Part shown: positions 5,717 through 7,606 of the stretch, piece by piece | How the letters are laid out: every line of letters begins with the position of its first letter | How positions within the stretch are numbered: the stretch's first letter is position 1 | Assembly (NCBI GenBank): GCA_964352905.1 | Contig: CAYGTS010000002.1 | Coordinates: forward strand, 1 to 56,525 | DNA length: 56,525 bases | Direction of reading: 5' to 3' | From: an uncultured Legionellales bacterium | GTDB lineage: Bacteria; Pseudomonadota; Gammaproteobacteria; JAHCLG01 | Position numbers and translations under genes: made by a program | The notes under the pieces: generated by a model | Database searches by the model: none | Seen by the model: the letters and a program-made list of their open reading frames with translations, nothing else | Told to the model about the DNA's origin: nothing

Positions 5717-7231
5717 ATGAAAGAATTGGCATTGGAAGGCATTAATCAATTCTCTTCAGTAAAATCATTGCGTAATGGCAAACGTCAAGCAGGGAGCTTA
5801 AAATTTCAGCATGTTGCGTGTGCTTGCGCGCAACATAAAAATCTCCCGCAGCCTGCTTTGTTAGATCAGAATAATAAAATTTTGTGTTTTACAGGAAAAA
5901 ATAAAAATCTCGATTGTCATTTTATACCCATAGTGACAAGTCAAATTGATACAGCAACGACAACAGATGGAACGTTACTATTAGCTTATTATCAATTTTT
6001 TAGCCAACATCATAATTGGCGAGTGCGTGCGGCTGTTGCCGTTGGAATTTGCCGTTATCATCGAGGTGAAGTAAGAAACCAACTATTAGAAATGTTGATT
6101 AGGGATCGGCACTATGCAGTTAATCTAGCTGTTGTGCAGGCACTAATAGATCAAAAAACACAGCCAGCAAACGTGTTATTACAACGATTTGCTAAAGATA
6201 ATGAAGTATCTAAACGAGCGCGCATGCTCATTACTAATAGTCTAAAAAAACAAAATGCGCGGATAAAATTAGAAAAAGAATTAGGGCCTCAAACAATAGC
6301 CATTTTAAAAAAGAAAAAAATCAATTATTGGAGTAAACCTAGAGCACCCTACAGGAATCATCCTAATGCAACGCAAAAAATTTTTTTTAAAATGCCAAAC
6401 ACAAAAAATTGGCAAGCGCTTTTGTTAAAGCGTCACACAAAAAACAAAAAACAACAAAGTAAACGCGATTATGCTGCGGATTTATTTTCACAAGCAGTTT
6501 ATCATAACGTCGCATTTAAAAAGCAGCATAGAAAAAAAGATAAGCCTTGTCATTTTCGAAAGAAAACAGGACTATTAACGGTACAAGGATTTCATTATAA
6601 AAAAGCAGCGTCTATTAGCACACCTAAACCGAGTGAAATTTATTGGGCAGTAGCACAACGTGATGATCCTAAATTATCTCGACCAGTGCTTGTTTTAGAG
6701 GCACAAGATAATCAAGCGAAAAAATGGTGGGTTATACCTCTTACAAGCCAAGCTTGTTTTGCGTGCAATACTGCGGGAAGCGCACCGTTTGCGATTAAAG
6801 TCGATAATGTAATGAGTTATGTGCAATTACAGCAGTGTCGTCTTATAGAGAAGCAACATTTAATTCGCTATTGCATGACGTTACCGGAAGGATTATTTTC
6901 TGAGATCCAACAGGCAAGACAGCAGTTGCACCGAGTTGTTAAGGTGCCAACGCGAAAAAATAAATTAGTACCAAAGAAAATGAATCAAAACCGTAGCTGG
7001 AGCAATTTAAAACCAGACGAAGGCACCTTAATGTATACGCCTGTATCAGCAGCAAGTGCTAAGCAATCTTATCATGCCGCTGTTGCAGTTGTGCCGAAAG
7101 AAACAGTTGGCCCTATTTTAAATGAATATATTAGCGCCTTATTAAAGAAGCAAGGTTTATTCAAGCTGGCTAGGGGTTTGAAGCAGCCACCTCAGCAGAA
7201 GTTCAGGCATCAGGCTATGGCTAAACCATGA
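5717..7231 (+). CDS. hypothetical 504-aa protein: HEAT-like repeats, Lys-rich linker and PemK/MazF-like C-terminal domain
   Basis: Residues around 100-175 show a HEAT pattern (NWRVRAAVAVGICRY..LLEMLIRDRHYAVNLAVVQALI). Residues around 180-300 carry K/R-rich blocks. Residues around 305-407 (SEIYWAV..SRPVLVLE..WWVIPLTSQ..SYVQLQQCRLIEKQHL..LPEGLFSEIQQ) follow the PemK/MazF motif order. Repeat elements flank the gene on both sides. Confidence 0.5.
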   Translation: MKELALEGINQFSSVKSLRNGKRQAGSLKFQHVACACAQHKNLPQPALLDQNNKILCFTGKNKNLDCHFIPIVTSQIDTATTTDGTLLLAYYQFFSQHHNWRVRAAVAVGICRYHRGEVRNQLLEMLIRDRHYAVNLAVVQALIDQKTQPANVLLQRFAKDNEVSKRARMLITNSLKKQNARIKLEKELGPQTIAILKKKKINYWSKPRAPYRNHPNATQKIFFKMPNTKNWQALLLKRHTKNKKQQSKRDYAADLFSQAVYHNVAFKKQHRKKDKPCHFRKKTGLLTVQGFHYKKAASISTPKPSEIYWAVAQRDDPKLSRPVLVLEAQDNQAKKWWVIPLTSQACFACNTAGSAPFAIKVDNVMSYVQLQQCRLIEKQHLIRYCMTLPEGLFSEIQQARQQLHRVVKVPTRKNKLVPKKMNQNRSWSNLKPDEGTLMYTPVSAASAKQSYHAAVAVVPKETVGPILNEYISALLKKQGLFKLARGLKQPPQQKFRHQAMAKP

Positions 7232-7236
7232 TCAAG

Positions 7237-7597
7237 CAGTAATTCCCGCTGTAGTTGGGAATAGCCATATTTGGGCAATCTCACGTTAAAAACCCCAAAA
7301 AATGTGCTCATTTATCATGTATAAACTGCGCTATTTTTTGAAATTTTGTAACTATTCAGTAAATTTAATTGTGAATTTACCAAGAACGTCCATATTTGGG
7401 CTAAAAACGGCGAAAATATTTTTGAGAAAGCGCAGTGTATGAGTTATACATGAGCATTTCGATAAAAGATTTTCGCCGTTTTTAGCCCAAATATGGACGT
7501 TCCCCTCTACAGGGTGAATAGTTACGAAATTTTTAACGTGACCTTGCCTCAAATCTAACTGTTCTTGAGTAATCAAACATTACGGCGGGAATCGCTG
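7237..7597 (-). mobile_element. family-2 element carrying a nested family-1 element
   Basis: Tips are CAGTAATTCCCGC and GGCGGGAATCGCTG. Perfect 9-bp repeat ATGATCAAG at 7228-7236 and 7598-7606. The interior is colinear with the copy at 29710..29883 apart from the insert. Confidence 0.9.
7348..7525 (+). mobile_element. family-1 full-length element (178 bp), nested
   Basis: Tips are GTAACTATTCAG and GGTGAATAGTTAC. 8-bp repeat GAAATTTT at 7340-7347 and 7526-7533. The uninterrupted target GAAATTTTT is visible in the copy at 29710..29883. Confidence 0.9.
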
Positions 7598-7606
7598 ATG
7601 ATCAAG

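What the first reader, a model, noticed from the sequence alone, without database searches (positions are those of the whole stretch)
7228..7606. Nested transposition: a 178-bp family-1 copy sits inside a family-2 copy, itself wedged into a 5-nt gap between two convergent stop codons
The family-2 element (7237..7597) is flanked by ATGATCAAG on both sides. The left copy contains the TGA stop of the 504-aa ORF (7229-7231), and the rpoH stop (TCA, 7607-7609) follows the right copy directly. Before insertion the two stops were therefore only 5 nt apart. Inside it, the family-1 element (7348..7525) is flanked by GAAATTTT. The uninterrupted target GAAATTTTT can be read at the homologous position of the family-2 copy at 29710..29883. 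This fixes an order of events and shows both families were active in this lineage.
Basis: seen in the sequence. Interest (0 to 1): 0.6.

Follow-up and report, generated by a model that had tools for sequence, protein, structure and literature searches.

The report
Nested jumping elements beside rpoH
Two small non-coding mobile elements (MITEs) sit one inside the other in what was a 5-base gap between the ends of rpoH and a neighbouring gene; this is real but is one of many such nestings in a repeat-ridden Legionellales-like genome.

Summary
A 175-bp family-2 (F2) MITE at 7237..7597 is flanked by the 9-bp duplication ATGATCAAG. It carries a 178-bp family-1 (F1) MITE at 7348..7525, flanked by the 8-bp duplication GAAATTTT.

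Genome-wide, 73 of 106 full-length F1 copies have an exact 8-bp duplication and 31 of 45 F2 copies an exact 9-bp one. Almost no other length occurs.

Removing F1 plus one duplicate restores a gap-free 175-bp F2, 97% identical to an intact copy. Six intact copies keep the uninterrupted target. A target profile built from 113 other F1 insertions ranks the used site first of 180 positions in the host.

New here: F1 tips (GTAACTAYTCAG) match the ends of ISBst12-group IS66 elements, which make 8-bp duplications. The resident copy is a pseudogene. The F2 mobiliser is unknown.

Nesting occurs in both directions (at least 8 F1-in-F2 events, two complete F2-in-F1 copies, and a third family inside an F2). 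Duplications that regenerate stop codons also recur.

No close relative exists in public data (best RpoH identity 74%), so the empty site cannot be shown. The order "F2 landed here, then F1" is likely but not proven.

This is ordinary MITE biology in new families.

The parts
5717..7231 (+). 504-aa orphan ORF whose TGA stop (7229-7231) lies in the left copy of the F2 target duplication
   Evidence: ORF list. Weak Pfam PemK and HEAT_2 hits only, and no NCBIfam hit. The identical protein and the same ORF/F2 junction are on a Logan contig of ERR3534981.
7228..7236 (.). Left copy of the 9-bp target-site duplication ATGATCAAG made by F2
   Evidence: Read directly. A 9-bp exact duplication is the family rule, seen in 31 of 45 copies.
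7237..7347 (+). Left part of the F2 host MITE (tip CAGTAATTCCCGC). Its last 8 nt (7340-7347, GAAATTTT) are the left copy of the F1 duplication.
   Evidence: BLAST to the F2 consensus, positions 1-103. Alignment to intact copies.
7348..7525 (+). F1 guest MITE, 178 bp, with tips GTAACTATTCAG and CTGAATAGTTAC-type (the right end reads ...GTGAATAGTTAC)
   Evidence: It is 94.4% identical to the consensus of its 37-member subfamily. Its tips match ISBst12-group IS66 ends.
7526..7533 (.). Right copy of the 8-bp duplication GAAATTTT made by F1
   Evidence: Read directly. An 8-bp exact duplication is seen in 73 of 106 F1 copies. The site ranks first of 180 in the host by a leave-one-out target profile.
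7534..7597 (+). Right part of the F2 host MITE (tip ...GCGGGAATCGCTG)
   Evidence: BLAST to the F2 consensus, positions 108-170. Alignment to intact copies.
7598..7606 (.). Right copy of the 9-bp duplication ATGATCAAG
   Evidence: Read directly.
7607..8476 (-). rpoH (sigma-32). The stop is at 7607-7609. The likely ATG start is at 8476, although the longest ORF runs to 8524.
   Evidence: NCBIfam TIGR02392 E=1.3e-122. Translation. At 289 aa it is the same length as the ORF of the nearest relative, so the insertion did not alter the C-terminus.
29701..29892 (-). Intact F2 copy (29710..29883) with its own 9-bp duplication CATAACAAG. It serves as a paralogous empty site for the F1 insertion (AAAATTTC at 29774-29781).

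Best explanation
Two successive DDE-type transposition events produced a Russian-doll insert.

First event. A 175-bp non-autonomous foldback element of family 2 integrated into the sequence ATGATCAAG. That sequence spanned the stop of the 504-aa ORF and the 5-nt spacer before the convergent rpoH stop. Staggered cuts 9 nt apart were repaired into two copies of the target. The ORF kept its TGA in the left copy, and rpoH kept its stop just beyond the right copy. Neither protein changed, which is why the insertion survived.

Second event. A 178-bp family-1 element, mobilised in trans by an ISBst12-group IS66-family transposase (8-nt stagger), integrated into the AT-rich tract GAAATTTT of the F2 body. 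This is the position in the host that best fits F1's target preference, WW|S-W6-S|WW.

Shown: the anatomy, the two duplications, the family-wide duplication lengths, the restored host, the target preference, and the match of the F1 tips to IS66/ISBst12 ends.

Inferred: action of the transposase in trans (the only resident IS66-like gene is a pseudogene), the identity of the F2 mobiliser (unknown), and that F2 was already at this site when F1 arrived.

Probable consequence, also inferred: both convergent mRNAs now begin a 361-nt nested hairpin 6 to 9 nt after their stop codons. This is most likely neutral. It could affect 3'-end processing or stability.
For: - Exact 9-bp and 8-bp duplications lie at the stated coordinates.
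- Genome census: about 95 full-length F1 and about 60 F2 copies by BLAST. There are 1041 F1-type and 377 F2-type tip sites.
- An exact 8-bp duplication is seen in 73 of 106 F1 copies and an exact 9-bp one in 31 of 45 F2 copies. Short derivatives follow the same rule, 41 of 94 and 11 of 28.
- The restored host is 175 bp, gap-free at the junction, and 97.1% identical to C8:4183-4357. Six intact copies retain the target.
- The F1 target logo is palindromic and AT-rich. A profile built from 113 other sites ranks the used site first of 180 in the host, at the 99.6th genome percentile.
- The left end of the resident IS66-family pseudogene (C18:6922) reads GTAACTGTTCAGCAAAATTAA. Its relatives in G118, G169 and G117 start GTAACTAYTCAGC.
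- The published ISBst12-group element ISDge4 has TIRs GTGACTACTCAGCA and GTAACTGCTCAGCA and an 8-bp direct repeat (PMC12898284).
- RpoH is 289 aa in both this genome and G001, so its end is native.
- Both strands of the composite fold as a nested hairpin, dG -151 and -162 kcal/mol, z -17 and -19.
- A second case of a duplication regenerating convergent stops is C51:4273-4358, with duplication CGTTAAAGT.
Against: - No empty or singly occupied allele could be found. The nearest RpoH in 5.8 billion proteins, the metagenome contigs and 185,579 species genomes is 74% identical.
- No intact IS66-family transposase is present in the 200-contig assembly. Present-day mobility of F1 is therefore unproven.
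- No transposase with F2-like tips was found. The resident ISAs1 copies end in CAGGGCGATTGCATC... or CAGGGTAAACGCATC..., not CAGYRATTCCCG.
- Host and guest are about equally diverged from their subfamily consensus (94.9% and 94.4%). Divergence therefore gives no independent support for the order of events.
Confidence: 0.9

Rival explanations
1. The composite moved as a unit. F1 entered an F2 copy elsewhere, and the 361-bp F2::F1 element then transposed to the rpoH site using the intact F2 tips. The nesting would be real but the order of events at this locus reversed.
For: Both F2 tips are intact and the 9-bp duplication is perfect. Nothing in the structure distinguishes the two orders. Host and guest show similar divergence from their consensus.
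Against: Both internal junctions, searched as 36-mers with up to 5 mismatches, are unique in the assembly. Other F1-in-F2 cases involve different F1 subfamilies or differently diverged hosts, so they are independent hits rather than copies of this composite.
Confidence: 0.1
2. Assembly artefact. Short-read assembly of a repeat-rich genome stitched an F1 copy into an F2 copy.
For: MITEs break this assembly. The window itself starts and ends inside F1-type elements, and most other nested cases sit at contig ends.
Against: A chimeric join would not create a perfect 8-bp duplication around a complete F1, nor leave host halves that rejoin without a gap into a canonical 175-bp F2. The left ORF/F2 junction is reproduced on an independent Logan contig.
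Confidence: 0.02
3. Homologous recombination between the related F1 and F2 scaffolds, rather than transposition, produced the arrangement.
For: The F1 and F2 bodies are homologous (global score 84 against 10.6 +/- 10.4 for shuffles). Hybrid copies with one F1 tip and one F2 tip exist.
Against: Recombination yields hybrids without duplications, as seen at C119:3201, C58:13292, C99:6648 and C82:8211. It does not yield a complete guest with both tips bracketed by an exact 8-bp repeat inside a colinear host.
Confidence: 0.02
4. The insert is a selected regulatory module, for example a bidirectional terminator, insulator or mRNA-stabilising hairpin between the convergent rpoH and ORF504, rather than a neutral passenger.
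For: The hairpin is extremely stable on both strands. Before the insertion the two genes had only 5 nt between their stops, so their transcripts must have overlapped.
Against: No intrinsic-terminator pattern lies within the insert, and the promoter and terminator scans do not exceed shuffles. The same elements sit in all intergenic classes (20 convergent, 48 tandem, 26 divergent for F1-type). There is no Rfam family, only sub-threshold generic hairpin hits.
Confidence: 0.1

Closest known systems
ISBst12-group elements of the IS66 family (e.g. ISDge4 of Deinococcus geothermalis, PMC12898284)
   Same: The terminal repeats are nearly identical to the F1 tips (GTRACTRCTCAGCA against GTAACTATTCAGTA and GTATCTATTCAGCA). 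Both make an 8-bp target duplication. A related but decayed single-ORF transposase gene with the same tip is present in this genome.
   Different: F1 is 178 bp, non-coding and a foldback, and it is present in hundreds of copies. Only the tips are shared with the IS. Mobilisation in trans is inferred.
QMITE2 of Coxiella burnetii (Wachter et al. 2018, PMC5896051)
   Same: It is also from a Legionellales lineage. It is about 170-190 bp with terminal inverted repeats (TIRs) and mostly 9-bp unique direct repeats. It sits at or overlaps the 3' ends of genes. It serves as a landing site for another mobile element (IS1111).
   Different: Sequence homology to F2 was not tested. The guest there is an IS110-family IS that targets a palindrome, whereas here the guest is a second MITE making an 8-bp duplication. 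QMITEs make up 0.93% of that genome, and the load here is several-fold higher.
Nested MITEs of maize and rice
   Same: MITE-in-MITE insertions are used to read target preference and relative timing. Duplications bracket the guest, and the intact host copy serves as the empty site.
   Different: Those are eukaryotic Tourist and Stowaway families with 2-3 bp duplications. Here the families are bacterial, with 8- and 9-bp duplications.
Correia elements of Neisseria and REP/BIME elements (from my own knowledge)
   Same: These are abundant short inverted-repeat elements co-transcribed at gene ends. Their hairpins can be processed or can stabilise mRNA.
   Different: Correia elements make a TA duplication. 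REP and REPIN elements make none and are moved by Y1 (RAYT) enzymes. No processing or stabilising function was tested here.

Membership tests
MITE (generic) | Terminal inverted repeats | tested here: met
   F2 has CAGTAATTCCCGC at one end and GCGGGAATCGCTG at the other. F1 has GTAACTATTCA and TGAATAGTTAC. The tip patterns recur 377 and 1041 times genome-wide.
MITE (generic) | Target-site duplication of constant, family-specific length | tested here: met
   Exact 8 bp in 73 of 106 F1 copies and exact 9 bp in 31 of 45 F2 copies, with essentially none at other lengths.
MITE (generic) | Small, non-coding, high copy number | tested here: met
   The elements are 175 and 178 bp. The 74-aa ORF inside the composite has no family hit. 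Each family has hundreds of ends in 2.54 Mb.
MITE (generic) | An autonomous element with matching tips exists | tested here: inconclusive
   For F1 this is met in kind: IS66/ISBst12 ends match, but the resident copy is a pseudogene. For F2 no partner was found.
IS66 family, ISBst12 group (as the source of F1) | 8-bp target duplication | tested here: met
   The published ISDge4 direct repeat is 8 bp.
IS66 family, ISBst12 group (as the source of F1) | Tips GTAA... matching those of group members | tested here: met
   Five IS ends from four genomes read GTAMCTRYTCAGC, against F1 GTAWCTRYTCAS. ISDge4 TIRs.
IS66 family, ISBst12 group (as the source of F1) | Functional transposase available in the same cell | tested here: not met
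   There is only one IS66-family match in the assembly (C18:7411-8127). It covers model positions 3-234 of 387, and an in-frame TAG lies just upstream, between the N-terminal part of the gene and this open frame. The assembly lacks contigs shorter than about 2.6 kb, so an intact copy could have been dropped.
ISAs1 family (as a candidate source of F2) | 8-10 bp duplication and CAGGG-type tips shared with a resident ISAs1 | tested here: not met
   The 9-bp duplication fits. However, the resident ISAs1 copies (one intact at C5, one broken by an F1 MITE at C54) end in CAGGGCGATTGCATCTTAATT or CAGGGTAAACGCATCTAAATTT. Only CAG and CGATT resemble F2.
REPIN/REP moved by RAYT | No target duplication; a GTAG-type palindrome doublet | tested here: not met
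   Constant 8- and 9-bp duplications are present.
QMITE2 (Coxiella) | Sequence homology to the QMITE2 consensus | not tested
   Only the published features were compared. No QMITE2 sequence was aligned.

The most novel reading that the evidence does not exclude
F1 and F2 may be one conserved hairpin scaffold that has acquired recognition tips for two different transposases. One is ISBst12/IS66-type, giving 8-bp duplications. The other is an unidentified enzyme giving 9-bp duplications. Insertion of one family into the other, followed by recombination between the homologous bodies, would be the route by which tips are exchanged. Tip-hybrid copies without duplications do exist. On this reading the nested copy at rpoH would be a snapshot of that process rather than a mere accident.
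Probability: 0.15. Interest if true: 0.6.

Novelty: new member of a known kind. Interest (0 to 1): 0.27.

Why it matters
The locus is a clean, fully assembled example of MITE-in-MITE insertion in a bacterium. It shows that two non-autonomous families with different transposition chemistries (8- and 9-nt staggers) were active in overlapping periods in an uncultured Legionellales-like lineage.

It also gave the handle that ties F1 to ISBst12-group IS66 transposases, and it provided an independent check of F1's target preference.

It illustrates how a compact genome tolerates such elements. Insertions persist where the target duplication regenerates the stop codons of both neighbours.

It does not reveal a new kind of system. 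Nothing indicates that the insert changes rpoH function.

Tried and rejected
- **Empty-site search.** I looked up exact products of RpoH with two alternative starts and found nothing on record. ORF504 is found only on one 1.7-kb Logan contig, which shows the same occupied junction. Metagenome and genome-collection scans with RpoH gave at most 67% identity. The 5.8-billion-protein search gave 74% at best. No strain-level comparison is therefore possible.
- **Autonomous copies.** I searched for tip pairs 230-4000 bp apart with matching duplications. This returned only nested MITEs and one 863-bp composite.
- **Retracted reading.** I first read GCGGGAATTGCTG at C18:8109-8121 as an F2 end truncating the IS66-like gene. 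I rejected this because it is the coding sequence for LRELL and a chance 13-mer.
- **F2 tips elsewhere.** Two hits in 400 genomes of the class lie inside coding sequence and are consistent with chance.
- **Literature search for F2 tip strings.** It returned only unrelated primer sequences.
- **Rfam.** Nothing reached the gathering score. Sub-threshold matches are to generic long-hairpin miRNA precursor models.
- **Element-level hotspot.** About 9 of roughly 500 F1-type elements lie in F2, which makes up about 1% of the genome. There is therefore no enrichment for F2 as such. The clustering within F2 follows from F1's AT-rich target preference.
- **Crosswise duplication matches.** I looked among the four tip-hybrids for matching flanks, which would indicate inversions, and saw none.
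Full report
**1. The observation**

Reading 7000..7900 confirms every detail of the finding.
- ATGATCAAG occurs at 7228-7236 and at 7598-7606.
- The first copy contains the TGA (7229-7231) that ends the 504-aa ORF 5717..7231.
- The second copy is followed at once by TCA (7607-7609). This is the stop of a minus-strand gene that NCBIfam identifies as rpoH (TIGR02392, 408.6 bits, cut-off 323.1).
- Between the copies lies an element with tips CAGTAATTCCCGC and GCGGGAATCGCTG.
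- Inside that element, 7348..7525 has tips GTAACTATTCA and TGAATAGTTAC and is bracketed by GAAATTTT at 7340-7347 and 7526-7533.
- Removing the whole insert and one ATGATCAAG leaves A-TGA-TCAAG-TCA, so the stops were 5 nt apart.
- The copy at 29710..29883 is an intact F2 in the opposite orientation. It has its own 9-bp duplication, CATAACAAG, and the uninterrupted target.

**2. Is it more than chance?**

The window is contig C2 of a 2.54-Mb, 200-contig, 39% G+C assembly.
- BLAST finds about 95 full-length F1 and about 60 full-length F2 copies.
- Tip patterns occur 1041 times for F1 and 377 times for F2.
- Among tip-defined full-length elements, an exact abutting repeat is found at k=8 in 73 of 106 F1 copies. 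At all other lengths from 4 to 12 there is a single case, at k=7.
- For F2 the same holds at k=9 in 31 of 45 copies.
- Short internally deleted derivatives obey the same rule.

The two families therefore use two different staggered-cut spacings. The duplications at this locus are exactly the ones expected.

**3. The nested insertion**
- Joining 7237-7347 to 7534-7597 gives a 175-bp element that aligns with no gap at the junction.
- It is 97.1% identical to C8:4183-4357 and 91-95% identical to five further copies. All of them read TTTTTTGAAATTTTTAACG at positions 98-116.
- The reconstructed empty sites of 114 F1-type insertions give a palindromic preference, WW|S-WWWWWW-S|WW.
- A profile built from the 113 sites other than this one ranks the site actually used first of 180 possible positions in the host, at the 99.6th percentile of random genome positions.

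The guest went where its transposase prefers to go.

**4. How common is nesting here?**
- F1 tips abut F2-internal sequence at nine or so places. Most cluster at F2 consensus positions 52-60 (C11, C126, C69) and 104-114 (C2, C94, C4, C75, and the start of C180); C95:2692 lies outside these windows, at about position 142.
- These two windows are the mirror-image AT tracts of the F2 hairpin.
- The guests belong to different F1 subfamilies, so these are independent hits.
- Most lie at contig ends because nested repeats break the assembly. The rpoH case is the only fully assembled F1-in-F2.
- The reverse nesting is fully assembled twice. F2 with the duplication CCGTTTTTA lies inside F1 at C14:14571-14932, and another F2 lies inside F1 at C45:8303-8665.
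- An F2 at C36:2825-3213 carries a third element with tips CATGGGCGTCAACTTAAGAA and a 10-bp duplication.
- Reciprocal nesting means the families were active in overlapping periods.
- About 9 of roughly 500 F1-type elements lie in F2, which is about 1% of the genome. F2 as such is therefore not a preferred target. Only its AT tracts are.

**5. Order of events**

The structure proves that the F2 copy pre-dates the F1 insertion into it. It does not prove that F2 was already beside rpoH.
- The composite's two internal junctions are unique in the assembly, which favours in-situ nesting.
- Host and guest differ from their subfamily consensus by 9 and 10 positions respectively (94.9% and 94.4%). Divergence therefore adds nothing to the question.

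**6. Who moves them?**
- The genome holds one IS66-family gene fragment, at C18:7411-8127. It covers model positions 3-234 of 387, with an in-frame stop between its N-terminal part and this open frame.
- Its left end, at C18:6922, reads GTAACTGTTCAGCAAAATTAA.
- Related single-ORF elements in three other genomes of the class start GTAACTACTCAGC, GTAACTATTCAGC, and GTAACTATTCAGC with GTACCTATTCAGC.
- The experimentally active ISBst12-group element ISDge4 has TIRs GTGACTACTCAGCA and GTAACTGCTCAGCA and makes an 8-bp repeat (PMC12898284).
- The F1 tips (GTAACTATTCAGTA, GTATCTATTCAGCA, GTATCTGCTCACC) and its 8-bp duplication fit this group. F1 is best read as an ISBst12/IS66-derived MITE whose resident mobiliser has decayed or was lost from the assembly.
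- For F2 no partner was found. Three ISAs1-type genes exist: one intact at C5, one split by an F1 MITE at C54, and one chimeric at C37. Their tips are CAGGGCGATTGCATC and CAGGGTAAACGCATC.
- The 9-bp duplication is compatible with ISAs1, but the tips are not shared.

**7. Distribution and relatives**
- The F2 tip pattern has 171 exact hits here and none in the two same-family genomes. Its two hits in 400 genomes of the class are chance matches inside coding sequence.
- BLAST with the F2 and F1 consensus sequences finds only weak matches to the central core elsewhere.
- The nearest RpoH anywhere is 74% identical. A same-family relative is annotated as a Legionellales bacterium MAG.
- G001 keeps apaG-apaH-rpoH, but it is followed by an unrelated 167-bp spacer and a co-directional gene.
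- The insert is therefore not ancestral, but no empty allele can be shown.

**8. Context and consequence**

I used crude gene calls (1955 ORFs, 85% coding) to look at where these elements sit.
- MITEs lie a median of 14-20 nt from the nearest gene 3' end.
- A stop codon lies inside a duplication copy in 12 of 103 F1-type and 7 of 38 F2-type insertions.
- At C51:4273-4358 a mini-F2 duplicated CGTTAAAGT, which contains the overlapping convergent stops TTAA.
- 77 of 267 convergent pairs have gaps of 10 nt or less.

The "wedged between two stops" geometry is thus what purifying selection leaves in a compact genome.

On the likely effect of the insert:
- RpoH is 289 aa in both this genome and G001, so it was not altered.
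- Both strands of the composite fold into a nested hairpin, dG -151 and -162 kcal/mol, z -17 and -19.
- No terminator or promoter signal exceeds shuffles.
- No Rfam family matches.

A regulatory effect is possible but unsupported.

**9. Relation between the families**

The F2 consensus aligns to the reverse complement of the F1 consensus with score 84, against 10.6 +/- 10.4 for shuffles. Shared blocks include GTAGC..GGAAC..CCATATTTGGGC, TGCTCATTTAT..ATAAACT.CGCT and CAAATCTGA.CGTTCTTG. The tips differ.

Host and guest are therefore related scaffolds with different ends. Copies with one tip of each kind lack duplications and look like recombinants.

**10. Verdict**

The phenomenon, nested non-autonomous transposons, is well known; prokaryotic TE pipelines routinely separate such "Russian dolls" (PMC3852290). 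The families are new members of a known kind. Interest is low to moderate.

Noticed in passing
G000:C36:2825-3213: An F2 copy (9-bp duplication CTACTCGCT, itself resembling an F1 tip) carries a third MITE of about 200 bp. Its tips are CATGGGCGTCAACTTAAGAA and ...TTCTTAAGTTGACGCCTATG, with a 10-bp duplication CGCTGTAGCT. From memory, the tips resemble those of IS231 (IS4 family).
   Followed up: partly
G000:C51:4264-4367: An 86-bp internally deleted F2 inserted into CGTTAAAGT. That sequence holds the overlapping stops (TTAA) of two convergent genes. The duplication gives each gene back its own stop.
   Followed up: partly
G000:C119:3201-3375, C58:13292-13463, C99:6648-6822, C82:8211-8385: Hybrid elements with one F2 tip and one F1 tip and no target duplication. 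They are probably recombinants between the homologous F1 and F2 bodies, and so possible scars of rearrangements.
   Followed up: partly
G000:C54:10090-11418 (L039): An ISAs1-family transposase gene is split by an F1 MITE at C54:10390-10567. The flanks of this IS carry a 17-bp perfect inverted repeat, CACGTCCGATCGACGGC, outside the CAGGG tips.
   Followed up: partly
G000:C18:6833-6932 (L040 334-433): An 82-bp F1-type mini-MITE with duplication AAAATTTT abuts the outer tip of the IS66-like pseudogene (GTAACTGTTCAGC...).
   Followed up: no
F2 consensus positions 69-98; e.g. L234, L239, L243: A 24-32-nt stretch of the F2 core (about GCTCATTTATTATGTATAAACTCCGCTATT) matches at 88-96% in about a dozen genomes of other families of the class, without F2 tips. 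What these matches are was not examined.
   Followed up: no
window 1-53 and 56474-56525: Both ends of the contig lie inside F1-type elements, so the assembly breaks at these repeats. Copy numbers and nested events are therefore lower bounds.
   Followed up: partly
window 54642-54709: A 48-bp mini-F2 is flanked by the 9-bp duplication ATAAGATGA (visible, D7 and I19). This follows the F2 rule.
   Followed up: partly
window 7338-7365: The F2/F1 left junction creates a weak sigma-70-like match (TTGAAA-16-TAAATT, 9 of 12) pointing towards rpoH antisense. It does not exceed shuffles.
   Followed up: no
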